Shown piece after piece: positions 9,171-51,596 of a DNA stretch of 64,000 bases (within the stretch, counting starts at the first letter, position 1; each line of letters starts with the position of its first letter). Made by a program: the position numbers and the translations under genes. Origin of the DNA: Bacilli bacterium (lineage in GTDB: Bacteria; Bacillota_I; Bacilli_A; RFN20; CAG-826); NCBI GenBank assembly GCA_031556235.1, contig JAVBTH010000001.1, positions 519,009 to 583,008 of the forward strand. Direction: 5' to 3'. The notes under the pieces were generated by a model that was not told where the DNA came from, did not search any database, and worked only from the letters and a program-made list of their open reading frames with translations.

Positions 9171-10145
9171 TTGCATATGTTGAAGTTTGGAAATATTACA
9201 ACTGATAGTATTGTGCTTTTGGCTCCAATGGCGGGGATCACAAATATTGCATACAGGGAGTTCTGCGTGCCATTTGGGGTTGGAGTCAGTTACACAGAAA
9301 TGGTCAGCGATTGTGGACTAATCTATCAGAATAAAGAAACATATAAGTATCTTGAAATAAGTGAAAATGAACACCCTGTAGGTGTACAACTTTTTGGTGC
9401 AAGCAAGGAAACTCTTTTGAAAGCCTTAGACATTATCAAAAAAGAAGGCATTAAGTGTGATTTTATTGATGTAAACTTAGGATGTCCAGTCCCTAAAGTG
9501 ACCAGAACTGGAGCGGGATCTGCATGGCTTAGTCGCGTTGATGAATTACACGAGATGATGAAATCTTTAGTGTTAGCTTCCGATGTGCCGATAACCGCAA
9601 AAATACGTGTTGGATGGGATGAAAATAGCATTAATGTAAATAAAGTTGTAGAAGCATTAGAAAGTGCAGGAGTTGCAATGATTGCGATACATCCGCGAAC
9701 AAGAAGTCAGTTATATATGGGGAAAGCCAATTATGATTTAATTAAAGATTTAGGAGCAAGAATGCGTGTGCCGTTAGTTATCAGTGGAGATATTTTCACT
9801 TTAGAAGACGCAATTGAAAAAATGCAAATATCAAAAGCAAAAGGAATTATGGTTGCAAGAGGGGCGCTTGGAAACCCCTACTTGATAACGCAAATCAATC
9901 ATTATTATAAAACAGGAGAAAAACTTCCTAATCCCAACTTAGTTGATCAAGTTAAAATGTTATTAAGTTATGCAAATAAACTAATTAGTTTAAAAGGTGA
10001 AGTAATAGCAATTAAAGAGTTAAGAGGAATTGCTCCTCATTTCTTTAAAGGATACCAAAACACGAAAAAAATAAGATCCAGTTTAGCGACCGAAATGAAA
10101 AGTTTTGCTGATTTAGTTTCAATTCTGGAGTGTATAGAGCATTAA
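9171..10145 (+). CDS. dusB: tRNA-dihydrouridine synthase B
   Basis: LAPMAGITN FMN-binding N-terminus, the catalytic NLGCP motif and a TIM-barrel Dus fold. Confidence 0.85.
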   Translation: MHMLKFGNITTDSIVLLAPMAGITNIAYREFCVPFGVGVSYTEMVSDCGLIYQNKETYKYLEISENEHPVGVQLFGASKETLLKALDIIKKEGIKCDFIDVNLGCPVPKVTRTGAGSAWLSRVDELHEMMKSLVLASDVPITAKIRVGWDENSINVNKVVEALESAGVAMIAIHPRTRSQLYMGKANYDLIKDLGARMRVPLVISGDIFTLEDAIEKMQISKAKGIMVARGALGNPYLITQINHYYKTGEKLPNPNLVDQVKMLLSYANKLISLKGEVIAIKELRGIAPHFFKGYQNTKKIRSSLATEMKSFADLVSILECIEH

Positions 10146-40993: not shown

Positions 40994-42655
40994 CTATTCT
41001 CCTTTAATATCAATTTTTATTTGGTCTTCACTTACCTGTGGTAAACGATATATTTGTCTTAGTTCTAAGAACTTTTTTTGTAAATCTATTGCTTTATTTC
41101 TAGTGACTGCAAATATTGGAATGTCAACGCCGCTGATCAACTTGACGATTTTTCTAAAAGTTACTTGATTAGCTTTAATATTAATCAAGTCACTTTTGTG
41201 AGTAAATTGAAATTCCAAAATCAAGATTTTTTTATTCATTACATATGGTTTACCTTCACAAAGCACATTTATATAACTCGCAATCGTGTTGTCATACTTA
41301 TATTGTTCAAGCAAGTTCCATTTTTCAATTAATTGTAACTTCATGGCACGATCACCTAGCGTCATAATTTCGATAATCGTATCATCGCTAAGTATATTTT
41401 TCTCTCCTTCAGACTGCAATTCTTTTTCAATTTTTAGACTTGGAATTACTGGAGGAGTGTCTTTAATAATTGTTTTTTCTTTGGGAGTAGCGGCTTCGAT
41501 TTTGCTCTCTTCAATTTTTTTAGAAGCCGAGATATTAACAACAGGAGAAGTTTCTATAGTTTCTGATTGATTAAACAAGTTACTAAGTTTAAGTAATGTT
41601 ACTTGGAAAAGCGCTTGGATATTGCTGACAAATTTAAATTCGGATTGAGTTTTAAGTAAAATATCAATCATTTCTAAACACTTTCCAGTAGGAATTAGTT
41701 TTTTGAGTTGATCTGCTTGAGGGTTATTTAAACGATTTAATAAAGAATCATCCATTGTTTTTTGGAAAATAACAATGTCCTTTAAAATTATAAGCAAATC
41801 GTCAGTTAGTTTTCTAAGATCGGCGCCATCCTCAATGAATTGATTCATTTTCAATAAAGTCGCTTTTGTATTGTTAAGGGCTAAATGTTCTAAAAGTGTG
41901 ATTTTTTCTTCGATGTTAATTAAACCAAATATTTCTCTAATATCAGAAGCTTTTAAACCATCTCCGTTATAGGCGATAGCTTGATCTAATATGGATAAAG
42001 CGTCACGAACTCCGCCATCGGATAAAGAAATAATCATGTCGATTGCGTCATCTTCGTAAATGGTGTTTTCTTGAGTGAGAACATCAATAATGCGATTTTT
42101 AAGTGACTTATCATCAACTTTAGAAAAATCATATCTTTGGCAACGGGAAATAATTGTAGGGAGTATTTTATGTGCCTCGGTTGTGGCTAGTATAAATATG
42201 ACATGTGATGGTGGTTCTTCAAGCGTTTTTAATAAAGCATTAAACGCTCCAGGAGTCATCATATGAACTTCATCGATAATGTAAACTTTGTAACGTCCTT
42301 TGATAGGAGAATACTTTACTTTATCGATTAAGTCACGTACTTCATCGACTCCATTATTTGATGCAGCGTCAATTTCAATGACATCTGGATGTGAACCATC
42401 ATTAATCGATAAGCAATTTGCACATTTATTACATTGATGACCAAGGCCTTCTTCGCAATTAAGAGCCTTAGCTAATAGTTTTGCCATTGAAGTTTTACCA
42501 GTTCCGCGTGGGCCACAGAAAAGATATGCATGCGCCATCTTATTTCCATGCAGAGCGTTTTTTAATGTTTGTACGATATGTTTTTGACCCGCAACTTCCT
42601 CAAAAGTGCTAGGACGATAGGCTCGATATAAAGCTTTGTATGACATATTTTTCAC
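40994..42655 (-). CDS. dnaX: DNA polymerase III subunit gamma/tau
   Basis: Walker A GPRGTGKTS, zinc module CxxC...C, sensor motifs, and a tau C-terminal extension. Confidence 0.95.
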   Translation of the reverse strand: MKNMSYKALYRAYRPSTFEEVAGQKHIVQTLKNALHGNKMAHAYLFCGPRGTGKTSMAKLLAKALNCEEGLGHQCNKCANCLSINDGSHPDVIEIDAASNNGVDEVRDLIDKVKYSPIKGRYKVYIIDEVHMMTPGAFNALLKTLEEPPSHVIFILATTEAHKILPTIISRCQRYDFSKVDDKSLKNRIIDVLTQENTIYEDDAIDMIISLSDGGVRDALSILDQAIAYNGDGLKASDIREIFGLINIEEKITLLEHLALNNTKATLLKMNQFIEDGADLRKLTDDLLIILKDIVIFQKTMDDSLLNRLNNPQADQLKKLIPTGKCLEMIDILLKTQSEFKFVSNIQALFQVTLLKLSNLFNQSETIETSPVVNISASKKIEESKIEAATPKEKTIIKDTPPVIPSLKIEKELQSEGEKNILSDDTIIEIMTLGDRAMKLQLIEKWNLLEQYKYDNTIASYINVLCEGKPYVMNKKILILEFQFTHKSDLINIKANQVTFRKIVKLISGVDIPIFAVTRNKAIDLQKKFLELRQIYRLPQVSEDQIKIDIKGE

Positions 42656-42854
42656 CTAGTATGATTATACACTTTTGGCGTTATCTTTTAAATAAGGAAT
42701 ATCATCATTTTTTAAATCAAAACTTATTTTAATGAAACGTATATTAAATTTAATTTTTCTTATTTACTGATATTTGCAATCTATCGATTAACTTAAAAGC
42801 AATAATTTCATAAATACAAAATTATTGAACGAATTGTTAAAAAAATGTAATATA

Positions 42855-42871
42855 TTGACAACGACTGTCAA
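42855..42871. promoter_or_regulatory. Perfect inverted repeat TTGACA-ACGAC-TGTCAA (doubling as a -35-like hexamer on both strands)
   Basis: Read directly. Lies in the 360-nt AT-rich gap between dnaX and the downstream island. Confidence 0.45.
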
Positions 42872-42880
42872 TAAAAAGAG

Positions 42881-43000
42881 GTGCCCAATCATTATATACG
42901 CCATAGGCAGTAGATTTCGGGGGAAATACGAACACAACATTTAAAGAGAAGTATCAGCACAAATATAGCCCCTGCACCATTAACAGAGGCTATACTTTTT
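42881..43000 (+). other. Candidate structured leader/small RNA ending in an intrinsic terminator-like hairpin (TATAGCC-17 nt-GGCTATA plus T7)
   Basis: A hairpin plus T-run at 42962-43000 lies immediately upstream of the small HTH ORF. A 5' GGUGC can pair with GCACC in the terminator loop region. Confidence 0.3.
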
Positions 43001-43017
43001 TTGTGCTACTCGATCAT

Positions 43018-43203
43018 ATGGAAAATACGGTATATAGTAAAATATTTAGTTTAATATTTATAAATAAAGAAAACATTGGCTTAGAAGAAATTGCCGCAAG
43101 AGTTGGTGTTAGCCTTGATACTTTAAAAAGAAACATAAAAAAATGCATCATTATAATGGAATTTATACACACACATGCTGGCGATTATACCAAAGACATA
43201 TAA
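43018..43203 (+). CDS. Small HTH-domain protein (61 aa)
   Basis: LEEIAARVGVSLDTLKRNIKK resembles an HTH recognition unit. The ORF-track start at 43003 is a GTG. Confidence 0.4.
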   Translation: MENTVYSKIFSLIFINKENIGLEEIAARVGVSLDTLKRNIKKCIIIMEFIHTHAGDYTKDI

Positions 43204-43285
43204 ATTCTAACAGTGCAGATGTTGCGCTGTTTGAACTCTTTTGTTTGCGATAAATTGATGGTGAGCAAAGGAGGAAGGGATTGAG

Positions 43286-43717
43286 ATGGAGTTTTTAGAA
43301 CTAATAGAGATTGAGTTATTAAAGTCAGTAGGTTATGTGACCATAATATCGGCGGTATTTACAATTATACTAACTAGCATAATTAAGAAGATACTAGTCA
43401 AAAAAGATGTAATATACCCAAATATGTCGAAAGCCCATAAGGATGAAATATTATCAAAAATTGCGCGATATACGGCGCTTGTAAGTTATGCGATTGTATT
43501 CTTTCTTAATTTGTTTCTGACAAAACAAACTATAGAAATAGACGAAAATCTAATCATTTCGCTAACTTGCGGAGGCAGTATGACAATAATTGTCACTAAA
43601 GGAATTTACACAGCATTACACCAAGGTAGCAAAAAGCAACTCGCTTATACCGAGATGGAAAGAGCACTAGAAATCGAACGTTTAGTGGAAGCTGAAATAA
43701 TTTCACTTAAAAAGTAG
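43286..43717 (+). CDS. Small membrane protein (about 3 TM) with a coiled C-terminal tail
   Basis: Hydrophobic segments and a GGAGG RBS upstream. Confidence 0.45.
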   Translation: MEFLELIEIELLKSVGYVTIISAVFTIILTSIIKKILVKKDVIYPNMSKAHKDEILSKIARYTALVSYAIVFFLNLFLTKQTIEIDENLIISLTCGGSMTIIVTKGIYTALHQGSKKQLAYTEMERALEIERLVEAEIISLKK

Positions 43718-43729
43718 AAAGGAGAAAAA

Positions 43730-44443
43730 ATGGAAACAAGTAAAATGCCAGGAATGTCTATAAGTTTTATCAGAAATGAATATGGAAATAAGTTTTTGAT
43801 TTTTAAAAGCGAAAGAATCACTCATGAATTAGAAGATAAACTTCGCTATGGAAGCATTAGAATGCAAATTTGGCTAGAAAAAAAGGTGCGAAAAGCCAAT
43901 GGTAAGAATCGTGTCAAAAAATGGGTTCATCCAGCGGATAAAAGTTCAACAGCACCAGTGAGATTTAGTGAAGAAGAAATTTTATTTAGACAAGGTTGGG
44001 GAGTTAGAACTTACAGTCCAGATTCCGGATTTTGTCCAAGTTATTCTACCACTAACGGATATGTTCCAACGGAATGGGAAGTAACTATAGACGATGTTAA
44101 AAGAGGCTGCATTGAGCGTAAAATTCCCTTCGATGATATAATTTCAAATATTATAACCTATAATGAGGCTCTCGTTTTTGACGAATCTTATAATATAATT
44201 GATGGTCCGTTTGAAATACCTAGTGGAACGGAATTATCACAAATTAGACTTATTGGAAATAGAACAAGTAGTAAAATTGAAATTCGTGTCAAATTAGTCA
44301 TTAAAGAAAATAATCTATTGACTAGTGGGACGTCACTTAATTCAGCTTTAGTAGGTCTTAGAAAAGAAGGGAATCTACCAGATTTTGATCGGATCTTTGA
44401 CGCTGAAAATGTAATGAAAATAGCCGCGATAGTAATTAAATAG
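43730..44443 (+). CDS. Hypothetical protein (237 aa), no recognisable family
   Basis: ORF with an AGGAG RBS, tightly coupled to the preceding gene. Confidence 0.45.
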   Translation: METSKMPGMSISFIRNEYGNKFLIFKSERITHELEDKLRYGSIRMQIWLEKKVRKANGKNRVKKWVHPADKSSTAPVRFSEEEILFRQGWGVRTYSPDSGFCPSYSTTNGYVPTEWEVTIDDVKRGCIERKIPFDDIISNIITYNEALVFDESYNIIDGPFEIPSGTELSQIRLIGNRTSSKIEIRVKLVIKENNLLTSGTSLNSALVGLRKEGNLPDFDRIFDAENVMKIAAIVIK

Positions 44444-44510
44444 AATTGGTTAGTGAGGCTTGTTCATGATTTCTTCTTAAAGAGATTTATAAGTCGAAGC
44501 GTTGAGAAAT

Positions 44511-44519
44511 TGTTATAAT
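44511..44519 (+). promoter_or_regulatory. Extended -10 promoter element TGtTATAAT upstream of the rhs gene
   Basis: TGnTATAAT match. The nearby TTGAGA is only 5 nt away and so is not a functional -35. Confidence 0.45.
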
Positions 44520-44520
44520 C

Positions 44521-44705
44521 ACTTCAGGCAATTGAAGTGAGCGGGGACTCTTATTCGATAGTAACAACTATCTACAGAATGAGGAGCCACTAAAGACTTT
44601 TCTTTAGATTCGATCAAAAAGTTTCACGACCCAATTCATGTATATAAGACCGATAGTTAAAAATATCGGTCTCATTTTAAATCATGGAAAAAGGAGATAA
44701 ATAAA
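44521..44705 (+). promoter_or_regulatory. About 180-nt structured 5' leader of the rhs gene, with a hairpin at the putative TSS and a 9-bp hairpin AGACCGATA-gttaaaaa-TATCGGTCT followed by cattttaaa
   Basis: The hairpins were read from the sequence. A strong RBS AAAGGAG lies 8 nt before the ATG at 44706. Confidence 0.4.
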
Positions 44706-47700
44706 ATGAGTACAAAAAGAACTGTGTCGATTATACCCAGTTTAACTGGAGTAACAGATAGCAATAATAGACTGACATTAGGTAAAAACATTGGTATAGG
44801 CATTACGATTCCTGCTACCAATCTGAATATAAATGAAAATGAAAAAATCAGCAGTGCGGTATTAATGCTCCGCATAGAGGGTTTTTATACGACTATGACT
44901 GGTTCATCAAATTTCACTGCTTATTTGATCGACAAAAATAATAAAAAAATAGCTTTAAAAGCTTTTAAACTATCCTCAATTCAAAGCGCAATGACAATAC
45001 CTTTGCTATTTGATGTAGGAGGTTTTCTAAAAGAAACCTTGTTGGGCGAAGACATATTATTAGCGCTCAAAATAGATGTGCCTCTCTTAGGAACGCATTA
45101 TTTAAATATTTCTAAACAAGGAGAATTGGTAGTCAGTTTAGAGTCTGTTGAAGAGGATCAAGCAGATGAGGGTGAAACAGGTGATAATGAGTCAGGCGAA
45201 GAAACTGCTTATGAATTAGATATTGACCGAAAAGATAGTGCAGTATCGGATGAAATTAATAAGATTATCTCGCTTACCGCAAGAGGGGCCGAATACTCTG
45301 AAGCGAATGATCCTATTCCTAATGGAGGGTTCACGGTTGGTTTTAATGGATATGGACATGGCGACGTAGATTACGTTGTGGCAGTTAATCAAGTCTTAAA
45401 AGATTTAAAAGATTTTGCAATAGAAAATGTGAAAATGGTTTTGAAAATTGATGATCATAAAAGACAGCAAATCGATGAAAATTTACCACTAGTAGCAATG
45501 GTTCATGGAAGCGACATTCTTGATGTGTTTACAGTGAACAATGATGCAGAAATGGAGTTTGATGTTACTAAAATATTCTTGTCTCCAATCGATAATATAT
45601 TGGTGAAGATTAAATCATTTTCAACTTTATCAAAACTAAACTATATTTTAGTTTCAGAAGATTCGGCTACTTTTAGGATTAAAGTAAAAGAAAAACATAA
45701 CACCGATAGAACTAGTATTACTAAAACATTAAAAAATCGTGACGAATTGCGTATCGATTTGTGTGATGGAAATCAAGTTCATGAGCACGTTTTGCTTACT
45801 AAAGAAGAAAGCCAACTGCCATTCGATATAACCCAAATTGGCAGCAAGCATGGTATAAAACTCAATATTGAGCAAAAACTTGAAACTGATGTAAAATTTG
45901 GAAATCTAGAATCAGATGGAAAAATTTCACGTGTAATCGAGGCAAATGGTGAGTCAAGGATATTTGTTGAAAAGTATTTTTATTATATGGGTGATAAAAG
46001 AATATTTGTTTCTAAGAATGACGTAATCAAAGTTAGTGAAGAAAAATATGAGATTAAATTAGAAGATAAAATACATGAAGTTTTCAAAGCTAGTATTGAT
46101 GAGAATGGAAATGCTTTAGTTTCTAGTAAAGAAGAAGATATAGATGTAGGTTTATTCTTAAAAAAATTTGGAGACAAAGTCTCTGAAGTTAAAATGTATT
46201 GTTACATTAATGATACAAGAAAAGAAATAACAATTGATGATAATATAGCAAATGTATCATCTATATATTACTTTGAGCATAGTGGAGTTTTTCCATTGAG
46301 TGACGTGGCAATCAGGAAAGATTCACTAGGAACTTATTTTGTATGCGACGGTGAGAGATTTGTGGTTGGAATAAAGGATCATAAGTTTGAAGTTATAGAT
46401 AAAAGTAACAAAATATATTTTCAGATTCCAACGAAATATTCTATAGATAATCATGATAATGCGCAAATAGCTGAATACGAATTAATAGAAATTTTTTCGG
46501 AAAAAGATAATATTTCTAAACATCTCCCAGAAATTTTTAAAAATGAAGATTTACTAATGAAAATCGAGGAATTAGAACAAACAAATGACTATATTAAGCA
46601 AATTAAAAATCAATTAGATGAAATAGAAATAAACAAAAATGATGCAAGACAAAAAACATATAAAGAAATTTTTAATATTAAAAACATCCTGCAAGACATT
46701 TATAATGAATGGAATAGTTTTAATAGAGATGAAGAATGGAATAAAGTAAAAAACATTTACTTTCCTGATGAATGTGAATATTTGTCGAAAGAAGATTGTT
46801 ATAAGTATCTTAACGATGCGTTAAATGACTTAGTTATATCTACAGATTTTGTTTTAAACGAATATAATATGTCGAGAATAGTTGAAAGCAAAGATTGTTT
46901 GTTAAGACCACTTAGTACTGGGTTAAATTATAATTTGCCGAGAGAAGTTTTTCTTCCAAAACTTAATGCATGCATAAATTCATTCAATTCTAAGCTTGCA
47001 TACGAAAACGAACAGATACAAAATGATACTATAGAGAAACAAAAAACGAGAATTAGTAAAGAATTAGAAAAATATCAAAATATAAAGAAGAAACTCTTTG
47101 ATGATATAAGGGTTCTATGGAGAAAATATTCATCCGGTCCAGTAAGTTTTATATTAAATCAAGATGAAAACTATTATGGATATGATTCAAAAGGCAGTTT
47201 TATCACCATGGGCAACAAAAAAGAAGAGACGTTGCGAATCATTTATGACGATAAACTCTCAGAATTTGGAGTAATATCGACAATTTATTTTAAAAACGAA
47301 AAGTTTGTTACTTTTTCATATGAGAATAATCAACTTAACAGAGTGAAAGCAGAGACGGGTAAGTTCGTTGAATTGGAAATGCTTGCAAATCAAATCAAGT
47401 ATAACCATAACAATAAATACGATGTTGATATAACTTGGAACGGAGAAACTCTTCGAGTTAGTAATAATGAGCATTATTTAGAAGCATCAAATTTATTTTA
47501 TGACCCACCAATAATTAAAGGAGAATCATGTCATAAATTCTTAAAAGTCGGAGGACTGATTACTAGTTATAATAGTCAAAAAATTGATGGTGGAGAAGAT
47601 ATTTATTTAGAAGAATATGATATTCACTTTATAAGCGATACTGTTACTAAAGTAGAGAATTTACAAAATAAACTAGTTCAGCAATATATCTTTAATCACT

Positions 47701-50700
47701 TAGGTGAAGTTGTGAGCACATTCAACTATTATTTGGAAAACGATCGTGAAAACGTTGAAGATATTGCCTTTAATGCAGTGAAACGCAATATAGGAAACAA
47801 GACTATTGAAGTTAAACAAACGAAAGTAGATATAATTGAACCGATTACTTTTGAAAACGGCATTAATGATTGGATAAGTTCCGCGGGAACAGTCGCAAAT
47901 ATTGCTAGCAATCAGCATTTCACAGGTAGCAAATCTTTAGAGATTGTAGGTGGAATTAACAAAAAGGCTAGCGTTAGTAAGAATATCACTTTAAATAAAT
48001 TTCCGATAAATAAAGCTTTTTCAGTCTCAGTATGGGCTAAAGCTGATGCGATGATTATGAACGACATATGCATTATTAACGAACCAGCAAAATCAGATGA
48101 AGGCAATGTTACTAAGTTTACTTTGCGAGTTGAGACAAAATTTAAAAAACGCTCACAGATTTTTGTAAGTGAGGCTGGTTTTGATGCACTTACAAGTGAT
48201 TGGCAATTACTTTCTGTGCCGGTGTCATTAAGATTTGCAAGCGAATTAAGCGATATAGTTAGTGTAAAAATTGTTCTTAAATATGAATACAACAACGGCA
48301 ATGTTTATTTTGATGACTTACATGTGGGCGAATGTTCGTATTCTCTTATTGAAGTTAATGATGAAGGTGTTGTGGTTTATCAAGAGAGTGAAAATGAAAG
48401 AACATATTATCTAAACTTAGTGGATAAAAAGCCAACGATTTCTTTGACTTTTGATAATGATGGCGAGAAGTATCATAACTACTTTAGTTATGGTGAAAAC
48501 GGTCAATTAGTTAAAGAAGAAAATCATTTAGGAATTATCAAAGAATATTTGTTTGATGAAAAAAATAAGAAAAGAGTCATTAAAACTTATCATAAAGATG
48601 AACCAGCTAATTCAATTTATGAAGAAAATATTTTTGATGAAAATGGTCGCAAAATAAAAGAAAGCACCAGTCGTGGTGGCTATCGTAATTATGGATTGTA
48701 TAATAATTATGAATATCATCAAAATTCTGATTTAGTTAGAAGTTATCAAGATGGTAGAGGTAATAAAACATATTATGGATATGATGAGGATAATCGTCTA
48801 ATAAATATTACTAGTTCGGTTAATGATGAAGAATGTTCGACATCAATCAAGTACGCTGGAGAATATATATGTAGAATGAGGACAGGAGATAATGAATATA
48901 CATATTCATATGATACTCGAGGACGTTTGTTAAACTTTAATATCAATAATCAAGAATATTTAAATAGCTCTTTTGAAGAAATTGACTTTGAAGATGTAAC
49001 AGTTACAACATACGGAACAGCGGAACAGTTTGTTAGCAAAGTAAGTAAGGATAAAAAATCAAATGTAATTATTTATAATGGTGAAATGTTACAGGAAATA
49101 AGTAAACTTGATCATGATACATACGAGATTAAGGACTATTTAAATAAAGCAATATATTTAATAGATGAAGAATCGGTTGACTGTAGAACACTTGATGCAA
49201 GTGAATTGATATATAGAAAAACGGTAAATCCACACATTCATAGTGTAAATTATGAAATTAACAATTGTGGAACAATAAAAGAATATACCTACATTACTCA
49301 TTATGATAATTTATTAGATCAAAAAATTAAAGAGTATAGTATTAATGAATCAACTAAGCAACTTTTTGACTATGATTTGCTCAATCGCGTTAAAAAGATA
49401 TGTATTTCTGAAAATGATAATAATTTGCTCGAATATAATTATAAATATTTAAAAGCTGGAGACTATGCAAGTAATATTATAAACAAAGTTACCAGATTTG
49501 TTTCAGAGGAATTAGAAAAAGAAACAAATTATAAATATGATGAAATAGGCAATATTATTGAAATATTGCAAAATGGTGAGACCACACATCGTTACAAATA
49601 TGATAGTGTTAGTCGTTTAGTTAGAGAAGATAATAAAGTTTTGAATTTAACTAATTTGTTTAGCTATGACTGTAATGGAAATATTTTGAGTAAAACATGT
49701 TATGGGTTTGCAAATGGAAAGTTAATAGATAAATTTTCAGGTAATAAACATGTATACACTTACGATAAGGACAATCAAGACCGTTTAATTGACTTTAATG
49801 GTGAAAAATGTACATATGACAAAATTGGAAATCCAAAGATTTACCGCGACAAAACTCTAACTTGGAGTCACTTACGTGATTTAATTAATTATGGACCCGT
49901 AACTTTTACGTATGGTGCAAATCATATGAGAACAAGTAAAAACTTATACGGCAACATTAGTAAGTATGTTTATGATGGAAATAATTTAATATTTGAAACG
50001 AGAAGTGATGGAACGACTATCGCCTATTTCTATGGCGCAGAGGGAATATTGGGATTTGAATACTGCGGGGAAAAGTATTTCTATGGAAAAAGTTTGCAAG
50101 GTGATGTTGATTGCATATATAATAAAGATGGAAAAATTATAGTAAAATATGAGTACGATGGGTGGGGGAATGTTAGAACTATTAATGGAAATGAAAAAAA
50201 TATAGGCGATATAAATGCGATAAGATATAGAGGATACTATTTTGATGTTGAAACTAATCTATATTACTTAAAATCTAGGTATTATGATCCAGAAACTGGA
50301 CGCTTTATTAATGCAGATGATATAAGCTACCTTGATCCGGAAACTATTAATGGTTTAAATTTATATGCTTACTGCAGAAATAACCCTATTAGATTTAAAG
50401 ATGAAATGGGCCGTTTTCCAAATAGTGATAGTGATGCCTATGAATTATTGGCAGCGGCTCTCGAGTTTAGCATAGGATTTGTATATGCGTTTAAAGCGTT
50501 TGGAATTAATCAAGATCTAAAAACAGCTACTTGGCCTCCTTACATTACAAAATACACTAATGAATTAACGGCGTTAAATAATACTTTGAAAATTGTCCAA
50601 AAAGCAGCAACTGTGTTAGCTGTAATTGGAATTGCTATTTCTACGATAGAAAACATAAATTCGGACATAAAAAAAGGTTACTCAACTGGAAGAATAGTAT

Positions 50701-50963
50701 CAAATGCCATCGTTAATACTGTAGTCAATTCCATAAGTACATTTGGCTTTGCAGCTTTAGGCTCAAAAATTGGTGGAGTAATAGGATCGTTTATTCCAAT
50801 TCCAGGTGTCGGTACCGCGATTGGAATGGTGATAGGGGCAGTGATTGGGTATGGTGTGGGTTTAGTATTTAACGCTGTGATGAATTTGAAAATAGGCGGC
50901 AAAAGTATTATGGATCATATTAGAGATGGATTTTATAACTTTTGGAAAAGTATATTTAGATAA
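44706..50963 (+). CDS. Giant Rhs/YD-repeat polymorphic toxin (2085 aa): unknown N-terminal region, acidic stretch, CBM4/9-like beta-sandwich, YD repeats, Rhs repeat-associated core, variable C-terminal glycine-zipper toxin domain
   Basis: Many YD repeats (e.g. [61 protein letters not shown]). The Rhs core reads [33 protein letters not shown]...[18 protein letters not shown]. The CBM-like domain is at about 47844-48332 (FENGINDW...[10 protein letters not shown]...FSVSVWAK...WQLLSV...VYFDDLHV). The N-terminus has no signal peptide. Confidence 0.85.
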   Translation: [2085 protein letters not shown]

Positions 50964-50972
50964 TAGTGAGGA

Positions 50973-51407
50973 ATGAAAATGAAAAAAATAAGCTTAGTGT
51001 CAATTGGTATAAAAATAATTATTGCGGTTTTAATTTTAATTTTTCTCGCCGCATTTGTTTTTCTAGCCATTTATGAAGGTCTAACGTCTTCAAACGTATT
51101 ATTCTATATTTTACTGCTACTCGCGATTAGTATAATGATTCTTTCTATAATTTTAAGTTTTAAAAGCAGGATACTAATTAATTATAATGAAAAGTACTTT
51201 GTAGTAAATAAAAAAAAGATAAATTTTTGTAATATAAAAGATGTGATTGTTTCGGAAACCTTAGTTAATAAAAGAATTAAACGTGCTATTATAATTCAAA
51301 AGAATGGAATAGAGGTAGAATTTATGTACATCTGTATTGGAAATAGAAGACAGACGAAAAAAATAATTAGTATTTCTAACGAATTAAAACTCTTAAACAT
51401 TACATAG
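50973..51407 (+). CDS. Putative cognate immunity protein of the Rhs C-terminal toxin (two-TM membrane protein plus small cytoplasmic domain)
   Basis: Sits immediately (9 nt) downstream of the rhs stop with its own GAGG RBS. Two TM helices. Position is typical of rhsI. Confidence 0.5.
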   Translation: MKMKKISLVSIGIKIIIAVLILIFLAAFVFLAIYEGLTSSNVLFYILLLLAISIMILSIILSFKSRILINYNEKYFVVNKKKINFCNIKDVIVSETLVNKRIKRAIIIQKNGIEVEFMYICIGNRRQTKKIISISNELKLLNIT

Positions 51408-51449
51408 AAATGCGATTTAAACATTTAGCGAGTTTTGGTGCAGAGAGAA

Positions 51450-51480
51450 AGGTAAATCATAAAAATGATTTACCTTTTTA
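51450..51480 (+). terminator. Strong rho-independent terminator closing the rhs operon
   Basis: 11-bp perfect stem AGGTAAATCAT-aaaa-ATGATTTACCT followed by TTTTTA. Confidence 0.85.
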
Positions 51481-51596
51481 TAAGAAAATGATTTAAAGTG
51501 ATTGGAGAAATATAATTATTTTGAATCATAAAAAACAAAAAACTTTATTGTTTTTATTAAAAGTGATAAAATAATGTGCCGAAAGTAGGGATAACC

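What the first reader, a model, noticed from the sequence alone, without database searches (positions are those of the whole stretch)
43018..44443. Three uncharacterised genes (small HTH protein, small membrane protein, 237-aa protein) directly upstream of the rhs operon
A tightly spaced co-directional trio sits between the dnaX-upstream gap and the rhs promoter. It comprises a 61-aa protein with an HTH-like segment (LEEIAARVGVSLDTLKRNIKK), a 143-aa 3-TM protein and a 237-aa soluble protein (GWGVRTYSPDSGFCPSYSTTNGYVPTEWEV...) with no family I recognise. No terminator separates them from rhs. They may be a regulator, a holin-like or export accessory, and a chaperone/adaptor for the Rhs protein, or an independent module of the same island.
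Basis: inference. Interest (0 to 1): 0.6.

Follow-up and report, generated by a model that had tools for sequence, protein, structure and literature searches.

The report
Unnamed accessory genes of Rhs toxin
Two of the three small genes, a three-pass membrane protein and a beta-sandwich protein, belong to unnamed families that sit directly in front of giant Rhs toxins lacking any export signal in every related locus examined, so they are very probably part of the toxin system and possibly its way out of the cell, though that mechanism is inferred rather than shown.

Summary
The three ORFs exist as described. They lie on a low-GC island between dnaX and prfA that also carries a 2085-aa Rhs toxin and a 2-TM immunity-like ORF.

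- **ORF2 and ORF3:** these are real, conserved genes. In 13 lineages from at least 7 chromosomal neighbourhoods, an ORF2 homologue always lies upstream of an Rhs locus.
  - In 10 lineages it is translationally coupled to an ORF3 homologue, followed by a ~500-aa N-module gene and then the Rhs.
  - In 3 lineages, including abundant human-gut forms, ORF3 is absent and ORF2 abuts the Rhs or N-module directly.
  - ORF2 is therefore the core partner, and ORF3 is a rare add-on with 5 representatives among 1.84 billion proteins.
- **ORF1:** it is a 5'-truncated copy of a ~90-aa HTH family that is present in only some loci.
- **Export signals:** none of the soluble proteins shows an N-terminal hydrophobic segment.
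- **Family matches:** ORF2 and ORF3 match no Pfam, NCBIfam, PHROG, PADLOC, PDB or phage entry.
- **Terminator:** A hairpin followed by a T-run precedes the toxin gene's RBS in 9 of 10 loci.

My best reading, which is inferred, is that ORF2 is a holin-like membrane dock or conduit and ORF3 is a cytoplasmic adaptor. The Rhs linkage is solid. The mechanism is not.

The parts
42964..43001 (+). Hairpin plus U7 run (intrinsic-terminator-like) immediately upstream of the ORF1 start. There is no + strand gene upstream of it. It may be the end of a short leader or small transcript, or a scar of the event that truncated ORF1.
   Evidence: -14.5 kcal/mol, z -4.25, 0 of 200 shuffles fold as well; sequence; no Rfam match.
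43018..43203 (+). ORF1, 61 aa (66 aa from GTG 43003). A small HTH protein with a sigma-70 region-4-like or HTH_11-like segment. It is a 5'-truncated member of a ~90-aa family (MLKRS...) found upstream of ORF2 in some related loci. No clear SD.
   Evidence: all HTH matches below cut-off; alignment with L004, L008, L015 and L016 copies; window copy lacks ~30 N-terminal residues; L017 copy frameshifted; L004 copy HTH_11 at 24.1 bits against a cut-off of 25; E 1.5e-5 to the L016 copy.
43209..43231 (+). Inverted repeat or hairpin (AACAGTGC-N7-GCGCTGTT) between ORF1 and ORF2, ~60 nt upstream of the ORF2 start. Palindromes at the same position occur in related loci (TTACCAG...CTGGTAA). It could be a 5' stem-loop, a weak terminator or an operator.
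   Evidence: z -2.3.
43286..43717 (+). ORF2, 143 aa membrane protein. My reading of the topology: acidic N-terminus outside, TM1 at 14-33, basic cytoplasmic loop (+5), TM2 at 62-79, short acidic loop, conserved Gly/Thr-rich third segment at 89-107, and a charged, helical-looking cytoplasmic tail. It is the core Rhs-linked component and is holin-like in architecture only.
   Evidence: SD AAGGAGG; at least 132 homologous clusters; hydropathy, loop charges, conserved K34, K52-D53, Y68, G96, K105-G106, Y108-T109, Q113; always upstream of Rhs loci; no family above noise.
43730..44443 (+). ORF3, 237 aa soluble protein with no hydrophobic segment. The prediction is a beta-sandwich plus a low-confidence loop at about residues 66-112. 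That loop carries most of the family's best-conserved motif (GWG...YSTTNGxVPTExE). ORF3 is closely spaced or overlapping with ORF2 (spacer -4 to +12 nt across loci). It is a lineage-restricted add-on of the Rhs locus.
44444..44705 (+). ORF3-Rhs spacer. It holds an extended -10-like TGtTATAAT (44511-44519) and a structured stretch at 44519-44592. A terminator-like hairpin at 44647-44672, followed by a weak T-run, lies directly before the Rhs SD.
   Evidence: hairpin z -5.0; 44515-44600 z -4.6; hairpin plus T-run before the RBS in 9 of 10 loci; no other sequence conservation; no Rfam family.
44706..50963 (+). Rhs/YD-repeat polymorphic toxin, 2085 aa. It has no N-terminal hydrophobic segment, and Pfam reports no LXG domain. 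The N-terminal ~1500 aa have no BLASTP match to the related Rhs proteins. The Rhs-associated core is at residues 1817-1902. The C-terminal ~180 aa are a glycine-zipper, hydrophobic (membrane-acting) toxin domain.
50973..51407 (+). ORF5, 144 aa with two hydrophobic segments. It is an immunity-like gene directly after the toxin. The exact sequence is not in the protein collection.
   Evidence: Other loci carry different small ORFs at the same position, and those in L005 and L019 look membrane-associated.
51448..51479 (+). Terminator-like inverted repeat plus T-run closing the Rhs-ORF5 unit, before prfA.
   Evidence: inverted self-match 51448-51477; sequence.

Best explanation
ORF2 and ORF3 are dedicated accessory components of a Gram-positive Rhs polymorphic-toxin locus, and I think they act in getting the toxin out of the producer cell.

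**Shown:**
- An ORF2-family gene always lies directly upstream of an Rhs locus. It is closely spaced or overlapping either with ORF3 or with the Rhs or N-module gene itself.
- The linkage holds whichever C-terminal toxin the Rhs carries.
- The Rhs, its detachable ~500-aa N-module and ORF3 have no N-terminal hydrophobic segment, so ORF2 is the only membrane protein conserved in the cassette.

**Inferred:**
- ORF2 (N-out, C-in, three membrane segments) oligomerises in the cytoplasmic membrane like a holin. It would form the dock and conduit, or cause local membrane disruption, through which the pre-folded, ~240-kDa Rhs leaves the cell.
- Its conserved cytoplasmic-face motifs (K52-D53 loop, KG-YT..Q after the third segment, charged tail) recruit the cargo.
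- ORF3 is a cytoplasmic beta-sandwich adaptor whose conserved flexible loop bridges ORF2 and the Rhs N-terminal region. It occurs in the subclade where ORF2 has a short tail.
- ORF1 is a decaying copy of an optional small HTH regulator.
- Toxin expression is gated separately by a terminator or attenuator in front of the toxin gene.
For: **Synteny.** Thirteen lineages, counted by ORF2 cluster, come from at least 7 different chromosomal neighbourhoods: dnaX|prfA here, ylbDEF, tmk-holB, pth-mfd, abhydrolases, yfhO/DUF3810 and an R-M/resolvase island.
- All have an ORF2 homologue followed by Rhs-system genes.
- The spacer after ORF2 is -23 to +12 nt.

**Fused and split forms.**
- In L019-21, ORF2 abuts a 2116-aa Rhs with a 0-nt spacer.
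- Residues 48-273 of that Rhs are 39-42% identical to the separate ~500-aa proteins of the ORF3-type loci. The same components therefore occur fused and split.

**Not immunity.**
- The C-terminal toxins differ between loci: a glycine zipper here and in L005, a different domain in L004, and PT-HINT in L006.
- ORF2 and ORF3 stay the same across these loci.

**No classical export signal.**
- No segment with KD >= 1.6 occurs in ORF3, in the first 100 aa of the Rhs, or in the N-module.
- Pfam reports no LXG or WXG domain.
- The larger ORFs of the 64-kb window that I scanned with Pfam are housekeeping genes, with no T6SS or T7SS components.

**ORF2 architecture.**
- Loop charges are -3, +5 and -2, followed by a basic tail.
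- Conserved residues cluster at the cytoplasmic face.
- Weak recurrent hits are to a PHROG holin family (4 of 16 members, best E 0.064) and to small membrane-disrupting proteins: SieB (6 of 16) and Cap15_TM (6 of 16).

**Regulatory parallel.**
- Sigma-70-type genes lie upstream in L008/9 and L019-21.
- This recalls the TcdR-TcdE-toxin layout (PMC12485765).
Against: - No holin, endolysin or any other family match reaches significance for ORF2 or ORF3.
- Neither family has relatives in phage records or viral contigs.
- No peptidoglycan hydrolase lies in the cassette.
- The ORF3 model is only moderately confident (pLDDT 61-62), and its fold matches are generic.
- ORF3 is absent from most of the ORF2 family, so it cannot be essential to the general mechanism.
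- A terminator-like element separates ORF2-ORF3 from the toxin genes in ORF3-type loci. This is also compatible with a regulatory role.
- Only 64 kb of the genome was seen, so a T7SS or other machine may be encoded elsewhere.
- No expression or secretion data exist.
Confidence: 0.4

Rival explanations
1. Regulatory module. ORF2, a membrane protein with a cytoplasmic tail, and ORF3 sense an envelope or cell-contact signal. They control expression of the toxin genes, for example by acting with ORF1 or the sigma factor, or on the conserved terminator in front of the toxin gene. They would not transport anything.
For: - A terminator-like hairpin lies directly before the toxin gene RBS in 9 of 10 ORF3-type loci, with promoter-like elements in the spacer.
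- HTH or sigma genes recur upstream.
- Palindromes recur upstream of ORF2.
Against: - In L019-21, ORF2 abuts the Rhs gene with a 0-nt spacer and no terminator, and those loci already carry a sigma factor plus a single-TM protein that looks like the anti-sigma.
- ORF2 and ORF3 have no DNA-, RNA- or nucleotide-binding domain match.
- This reading leaves the export of a protein without an export signal unexplained.
Confidence: 0.2
2. Producer-side assembly or self-protection factors. ORF3 would be a folding or assembly chaperone for the Rhs shell or N-module. ORF2 would be a general membrane protector against the hydrophobic, glycine-zipper C-terminal toxins that these Rhs proteins carry. Export would occur by another route or by cell lysis.
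For: - The C-terminal regions after the Rhs core in the window, L004, L005 and L019 all contain hydrophobic or glycine-zipper segments.
- T6SS Rhs effectors with TM segments need dedicated chaperones (PMC7773334).
- ORF3 is a soluble beta-rich protein like many adaptors.
Against: - Separate, variable immunity-like ORFs already follow each toxin.
- Rhs toxins are encapsulated by the shell, which already protects the producer (PMC8636562).
- ORF3 is dispensable in most loci.
Confidence: 0.17
3. The Rhs is a substrate of a known machine encoded elsewhere in the genome (T7SSb, or Sec through an unrecognised signal). ORF2 and ORF3 would be targeting partners for that machine, comparable to the small partner proteins of LXG toxins.
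For: - T7SSb-linked Rhs toxins exist in Bacillota (PMC10327511; PMC11217815).
- Only 64 kb of the genome was inspected.
Against: - Pfam reports no LXG, WXG100 or other helical targeting domain for the Rhs. The soluble partners have no N-terminal hydrophobic segment.
- No EssC or EsxA genes were seen, either among the larger window ORFs I scanned or among the called genes of the related loci.
- ORF2 is an integral membrane protein, unlike the LXG partner proteins.
Confidence: 0.12
4. ORF1-3 are an unrelated module, such as a prophage lysis remnant, a toxin-antitoxin or abortive-infection pair, or a defence system, that merely shares the island with the Rhs.
For: - ORF2 shows weak SieB and holin-like hits.
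- The island has a lower GC content than its flanks.
Against: - The fixed order next to Rhs genes holds in 13 lineages at different chromosomal sites (as listed above).
- There is no match in 50,697 phage records, IMG/VR contigs, PHROGs or PADLOC.
- No other phage genes are nearby.
Confidence: 0.03

Closest known systems
C. difficile PaLoc: TcdR sigma factor, TcdE holin-like protein and TcdL endolysin remnant, with the large toxins TcdA/TcdB (PMC12150058, PMC10516005, PMC12485765)
   Same: - A very large toxin without a signal peptide.
- A small multi-pass membrane protein with a charged C-tail encoded beside it.
- A small soluble partner.
- In some related loci, a short sigma-70-type factor upstream.
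   Different: - ORF2 matches no holin family. The window protein had none at E up to 10, and the recurrent family hits are noise-level.
- ORF3 is not an endolysin fragment.
- The cargo is an Rhs/YD shell toxin with an immunity gene, which points to interbacterial use, rather than a glucosyltransferase toxin.
- No phage ancestry is detectable.
Type 10 secretion or lysis cassette releasing the Yersinia entomophaga Tc toxin, whose TcB/TcC part is an Rhs-type cocoon (PMC10847048, PMC10847046, PMC10101115)
   Same: - An Rhs-repeat-containing giant toxin without a signal peptide.
- The toxin is released with the help of a dedicated membrane protein encoded in or near the toxin locus.
   Different: - A T10SS needs a holin plus an endolysin (and a spanin in Gram-negatives). 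No peptidoglycan hydrolase is present here.
- This is a Gram-positive host.
- There is no TcA-like injection subunit.
T6SS Rhs effectors with Eag chaperones, VgrG or PAAR (PMC7773334, PMC8636562)
   Same: - Conserved accessory genes lie directly upstream of the Rhs gene.
- Those genes are independent of the C-terminal toxin type.
- The N-terminal region of the Rhs adapts it to the delivery route.
   Different: - There is no PAAR, VgrG or DUF1795 match and no T6SS, in a Gram-positive host.
- The accessory here is an integral membrane protein.
T7SSb-associated Rhs/LXG toxins of Bacillota (PMC10327511, PMC11217815, PMC10765036)
   Same: - A Bacillota host.
- An antibacterial polymorphic toxin with a downstream immunity gene.
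- Small partner genes upstream.
   Different: - Pfam reports no LXG or WXG100 domain for the Rhs.
- No EssC is seen in the window ORFs I scanned or in any related locus.
- The partner is a membrane protein.
WapA-type, Sec-dependent Rhs proteins of Gram-positives (PMC12704120, PMC3482391), and the S8-PTS loci (PMC9424270)
   Same: - A YD-repeat shell with polymorphic C-terminal toxins and immunity genes.
- The L019-type relatives also carry a Peptidase_S8 gene next to the toxin, as in S8-PTS.
   Different: - WapA and S8-PTS toxins start with a signal peptide. These Rhs proteins and their N-modules do not.
- No ORF2-like gene is described for those systems.

Membership tests
Rhs/YD-repeat polymorphic toxin (the downstream gene, 44706-50963) | RHS repeat-associated core domain followed by a variable C-terminal toxin | tested here: met
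   - TIGR03696 matches at 3.1e-20 (72 bits against a cut-off of 32.5) over residues 1817-1902.
- A YD repeat (TIGR01643) scores 26.8 bits against a cut-off of 15.8.
- The C-terminal domain differs between sister loci.
Rhs/YD-repeat polymorphic toxin (the downstream gene, 44706-50963) | Cognate immunity gene directly downstream | tested here: inconclusive
   A small ORF with two hydrophobic segments lies at 50973-51407, and variable small ORFs occupy the same place in other loci. No homology to a known immunity family was found, and there is no functional test.
Phage holins (Pfam and PHROG holin families, including the TcdE family) | Sequence match to a holin family profile | tested here: not met
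   - The window ORF2 has no holin family at E up to 10 in Pfam or PHROGs.
- Across 16 members, the only holin family is phrog_1299, in 4 members with best E 0.064.
Phage holins (Pfam and PHROG holin families, including the TcdE family) | Small protein with at least 1 TMD and a charged cytoplasmic C-terminus | tested here: met
   - The proteins are 143-197 aa with 2 clear hydrophobic segments plus 1 weaker one.
- Loop charges are -3, +5 and -2.
- The tail is lysine-rich.
- This is an architectural feature, not a specific one.
Phage holins (Pfam and PHROG holin families, including the TcdE family) | Encoded next to an endolysin, or of phage origin | tested here: not met
   No peptidoglycan hydrolase domain is found in ORF3 or its neighbours. 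There are no relatives in phage records or viral contigs.
Phage holins (Pfam and PHROG holin families, including the TcdE family) | Forms lethal or permeabilising membrane lesions when expressed | not testable with these tools
   This needs an expression or complementation assay.
Type 10 secretion system | Holin plus peptidoglycan-cleaving enzyme acting together for protein release | tested here: not met
   Only a holin-like membrane protein is present. ORF3 has no hydrolase match by sequence or by fold.
Sigma-70 / TcdR-type sigma factor (ORF1) | Region 2 and region 4 domains above the family cut-off | tested here: not met
   - ORF1 has only sub-threshold region-4/HTH hits (15 bits against a cut-off of 24) and no region 2.
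- The profile comparison with the locus-linked sigma factors aligns only the HTH (E 0.01, probability 4%).
T7SSb substrate (LXG/WXG100) | N-terminal LXG or WXG100 helical domain, with EssC/EsxA genes nearby | tested here: not met
   Pfam reports no such domain in the Rhs, ORF3 or the N-module. No FtsK/EssC-type gene is seen among the larger window ORFs I scanned or in the related loci. The rest of the genome was not seen.
Sec-dependent wall-associated Rhs (WapA type) | N-terminal signal peptide | tested here: not met
   No hydrophobic segment (KD 19-residue window at 1.6 or above) occurs in the first 100 residues of the Rhs, nor anywhere in ORF3 or the N-module. This is a simple hydropathy test, not SignalP.
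T6SS effector chaperones/adaptors (Eag/DUF1795, DUF4123, DUF2169) | Match to the adaptor family, with a T6SS context | tested here: not met

The most novel reading that the evidence does not exclude
The ORF2 family, with ORF3 as a lineage-specific adaptor, defines a previously undescribed export or release route for giant, pre-folded Rhs toxins in Gram-positive gut bacteria. In this reading the route is independent of Sec, T7SS and phage-type lysis enzymes. A small three-pass membrane protein would recognise the detachable N-terminal module of the Rhs and let it cross the membrane.
Probability: 0.3. Interest if true: 0.8.

Novelty: new variant of a known kind. Interest (0 to 1): 0.55.

Why it matters
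How Rhs toxins without a Sec signal, a T6SS or a T7SS leave Gram-positive cells is an open question.

This locus type offers a compact and testable candidate. The candidate is one small membrane protein that is always encoded with the toxin, plus an optional soluble partner and a detachable N-terminal module.

The ORF2 family is abundant in human-gut metagenomes (Hadza and Nepal samples). Its function may therefore bear on competition among gut Firmicutes.

Even if the export idea fails, the work defines two unnamed protein families by a strict genomic association. It also defines a conserved terminator checkpoint in front of the toxin genes.

Tried and rejected
**Family scans.**
- Pfam, NCBIfam, PHROGs and PADLOC scans gave nothing above noise for ORF2, ORF3 or the N-module.
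- Only sub-threshold HTH hits appeared for ORF1.

**RNA searches.**
- Rfam on 42500-44900 at E up to 1 gave no hits.
- Rfam on the whole window at gathering score gave no hits.
- There is therefore no known riboswitch or leader in the spacers.

**Exhaustive search.** The HMM search with the ORF3 profile found no distant relatives, only 5 representatives.

**Structure.**
- Two AlphaFold runs of ORF3, with 4 and 8 sequences, stayed at pLDDT 61-62.
- The afdb50 library was not available.
- The PDB sequence search gave nothing.

**Phage origin.**
- tblastn against phage records gave no relatives.
- Pattern scans of IMG/VR gave none either.
- The prophage-remnant idea is rejected.

**Fusion hypothesis for the window's Rhs.**
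- I tested whether the window's 2085-aa Rhs contains the ~500-aa N-module.
- BLAST and two profile comparisons found only a 37-residue motif (residues 559-595, probability 2%).
- This is not demonstrated, although the fusion is clear in L019.

**ORF1 as a sigma fragment.** The profile comparison aligns only the HTH, so this is left as a hint.

**Spacers.**
- Alignment of the ORF3-toxin spacers showed no conserved leader apart from the terminator and RBS.
- No repeats of the spacers occur elsewhere in the window.

**Literature.** Searches found no description of such accessory genes.

**Organism.** The source organism could not be named.
Full report
**1. What is in the window**

The region lies in a low-GC Bacillota chromosome among housekeeping genes. 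The tmk, recR, ybaB-like and dnaX genes are on the minus strand and end at 42655. The prfA gene starts at 51576, and mfd, spoIIE, ftsH, dnaB, yfhO and secA lie further out. Between dnaX and prfA sits a + strand island:

- ORF1: 43018-43203, 61 aa.
- ORF2: 43286-43717, 143 aa.
- ORF3: 43730-44443, 237 aa.
- A 2085-aa Rhs protein: 44706-50963.
- ORF5: 50973-51407, a 144-aa ORF with two hydrophobic segments.
- A terminator-like inverted repeat at 51448-51479.

GC falls to 26-30% inside the Rhs gene, against 33-36% in the flanks. The Rhs identity is secure: it matches Rhs_assc_core at 3e-20 over residues 1817-1902 and carries a YD repeat. The ~180 residues after the core form a glycine-zipper, hydrophobic domain.

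**2. Are the three ORFs real?**

ORF2 and ORF3 have good Shine-Dalgarno sequences and a 12-nt spacer. Both have homologues at 30-46% identity on many independent contigs, so they are genes.

ORF1 is weaker:
- Its HTH hits are all below curated thresholds.
- It has no clear SD.
- A strong hairpin plus U7 (42964-43001, z -4.25) ends 1 nt before its alternative GTG start.
- It aligns with a ~90-aa family (MLKRS...; L004, L008/9, L015, L016-18) but lacks the first ~30 residues. The L017 copy is frameshifted, and L006/7, L010/11 and L012/13 have no copy.

I read ORF1 as an optional small HTH gene that is degenerating here.

**3. Linkage to Rhs**

ORF3 has only a handful of relatives: 4 by word-indexed search and 5 representatives among 1.84 billion proteins by exhaustive HMM search. 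Every ORF3 relative whose context could be read has the same layout:
- It lies directly after an ORF2 homologue, with a spacer of -4 to +2 nt.
- After a further 130-350 nt come a ~500-550-aa gene and then a 1575-1795-aa YD/Rhs gene with small ORFs behind it.
- This holds in L001/2, L003, L004/5, L006/7, L008/9, L011, L012/13 and L016-18.

The flanking genes differ between loci (ylbDEF, tmk-holB, pth-mfd, abhydrolases, yfhO/DUF3810). The cassette is therefore a mobile unit and not a conserved chromosomal neighbourhood.

**4. ORF2 is the core partner and ORF3 is an add-on**

A profile of 16 ORF2 relatives retrieved at least 132 clusters. Most are 165- or 176-aa forms from human-gut metagenomes.

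In L019-21, the order is as follows:
1. Sigma-70 factor.
2. A 199-aa protein with one hydrophobic segment.
3. Peptidase_S8.
4. ORF2 homologue.
5. After a 0-nt spacer, a 2116-aa Rhs.
6. A small hydrophobic, immunity-like ORF.

ORF3 is absent from these loci.

Residues 48-273 of that Rhs are 39-42% identical to the N-terminal half of the separate ~500-aa proteins. That protein is therefore a detachable N-terminal module of the Rhs. In L015 and L022, ORF2 is likewise followed directly by an N-module-type gene.

The window is a third variant: ORF2, then ORF3, then one long Rhs. The N-terminal ~1500 aa of that Rhs have no BLASTP match to the others. Only a 37-residue motif (559-595) resembles the N-module core, and not significantly.

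**5. What the proteins look like**

ORF2 (segment boundaries are my reading of the sequence):
- An acidic N-terminus with net charge -3.
- TM1 at 14-33.
- A basic loop with net charge +5.
- TM2 at 62-79.
- A short acidic loop.
- A third segment at 89-107 that did not reach the threshold in my hydropathy scan. It carries several of the family's conserved residues (G96, T100, K105-G106).
- Y108-T109 and Q113 follow directly after it.
- A charged tail of variable length.
- The loop charges fit an N-out, C-in topology.

That is the architecture of a class I holin, but no holin family matches. Only noise-level recurrent hits appear: phrog_1299 holin in 4 of 16 members, SieB in 6 of 16 and Cap15_TM in 6 of 16.

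ORF3:
- It has no hydrophobic segment and no family match.
- AlphaFold gives a beta-sandwich at pLDDT 61-62.
- Most of the best-conserved motif (GWG...YSTTNGxVPTExE) lies in a low-confidence loop at about residues 66-112.

Neither family has relatives in phage genomes or viral contigs.

**6. Transcription signals**

- A 9-bp hairpin at 44647-44672 (z -5.0), followed by a weak T-run, precedes the Rhs SD.
- In 9 of 10 ORF3-type loci, a hairpin followed by a T-run lies shortly upstream of the SD of the gene after ORF3.
- The window spacer also carries an extended -10-like TGtTATAAT (44511-44519) and a structured stretch with z -4.6.
- Apart from the terminator and RBS, the spacers are not conserved, and no Rfam family matches.

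I infer that ORF2-ORF3 and the toxin genes are separately gated, by an attenuator or a read-through checkpoint. In the ORF3-less loci, ORF2 and the Rhs gene abut directly.

**7. Mechanism**

What is shown:
- ORF2, and ORF3 where present, belong to the Rhs system and are independent of the toxin domain. The window's C-terminal domain resembles that of L005, whereas the near-identical sister locus L004 has another one, and L006 has PT-HINT. They are therefore not immunity proteins.
- The Rhs, the N-module and ORF3 have no N-terminal hydrophobic segment, and Pfam reports no LXG or WXG domain.
- No T6SS or T7SS gene is seen among the larger window ORFs I scanned or in the related loci.

What is inferred:
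- ORF2 is the only conserved membrane component, and its conserved residues face the cytoplasm.
- It is therefore the best candidate for a membrane dock or conduit for the folded toxin, working like TcdE or like the holins of type 10 systems. ORF3 would be a cytoplasmic adaptor.
- I give this 0.4.

The rivals are these:
- A regulatory role at the terminator checkpoint (0.2).
- Assembly or self-protection factors (0.17).
- Targeting partners for a T7SS or other machine encoded elsewhere (0.12).
- An unrelated module (0.03).

**8. Comparison with known systems**

The layout works like two known systems:
- The clostridial PaLoc, with a sigma factor, a holin-like protein, a small partner and a giant toxin (PMC12150058, PMC10516005, PMC12485765).
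- The T10SS-mediated release of the Rhs-containing Yersinia Tc toxin (PMC10847048).

Membership in the holin or T10SS families fails on sequence and on the missing peptidoglycan hydrolase.

The locus differs from the other known Rhs classes as follows:
- T6SS Rhs (PMC7773334, PMC8636562): there is no PAAR, VgrG or Eag.
- T7SSb Rhs (PMC10327511): there is no LXG domain or EssC.
- WapA and S8-PTS toxins (PMC12704120, PMC9424270): there is no signal peptide.

The large survey of polymorphic toxin systems (PMC3482391) does not mention holins. My literature searches found no description of these accessory genes.

**9. Verdict**

- The association with Rhs is strongly supported.
- The roles assigned to the three genes remain hypotheses.
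- This is a new variant of a known kind: an Rhs polymorphic-toxin locus with two unnamed accessory families and a conserved terminator checkpoint.

**10. Limits**

- Only 13 lineages of the ORF2 family could be inspected.
- The signal-peptide test is a simple hydropathy scan.
- The structure model is of moderate confidence.
- Nothing here measures expression or secretion.

Noticed in passing
window 42826-43002 (+): A strong hairpin plus U7 (42964-43001) lies on the + strand with no + strand gene upstream, since dnaX is on the minus strand. A promoter-like TTGAAC-18-TAATAT lies ~110 nt before it. This could be a ~140-nt leader or small RNA, or a scar of the ORF1 truncation. No Rfam match.
   Followed up: partly
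window 43018-43203; L017 418-594: The window ORF1 lacks ~30 N-terminal residues of its ~90-aa family, and the L017 copy is frameshifted. Several loci have no copy. The small HTH gene appears to be decaying or optional.
   Followed up: yes
L003 ~85-112; L004 ~9925-9952; L008 ~9920-9947; L010/L011 upstream of ORF2; window 43209-43231: A palindrome (TTACCAG-N7-9-CTGGTAA; AACAGTGC-N7-GCGCTGTT in the window) recurs ~60-70 nt upstream of the ORF2 start codon. It could be an operator, a 5' stabilising stem-loop or a weak terminator.
   Followed up: partly
L019 7089-9884 (also L020, L021): In the human-gut loci, a sigma-70-type factor (169 aa), a 199-aa protein with one hydrophobic segment (anti-sigma-like) and a Peptidase_S8 with a signal-peptide-like N-terminus precede ORF2-Rhs. 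This is reminiscent of the S8-PTS loci (PMC9424270). A related sigma gene (28% identity) lies upstream in L008/L009.
   Followed up: partly
window 50400-50963 (Rhs residues ~1900-2085); L005 12863-17605; L004 12863-17590: The window's glycine-zipper C-terminal toxin resembles that of L005 (27% identity, E 2e-10). L004, a locus otherwise near-identical to L005, carries a different C-terminal domain and a different downstream ORF. This is typical toxin and immunity cassette swapping.
   Followed up: partly
L001 824-1034: The spacer between ORF3 and the N-module gene contains two direct copies of a ~45-nt unit (ttggtgacaattgctcctttga.cta..gttataa...tttgcaaaatggtct). Each carries promoter-like hexamers. 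This locus lacks the usual terminator hairpin.
   Followed up: no
window 46380-46490 (Rhs residues 559-595): The short motif FEVIDKSNKIYFQIPTKYSIDNHDN..YEL resembles the most conserved motif of the detachable N-module (IEL.D..N...IPSP.M.D.NN..S.D..YEI). It is not statistically significant (hhalign probability 2%).
   Followed up: partly
window 1-64000: No Rfam family reaches its gathering score anywhere in the 64-kb window, on either strand.
   Followed up: no
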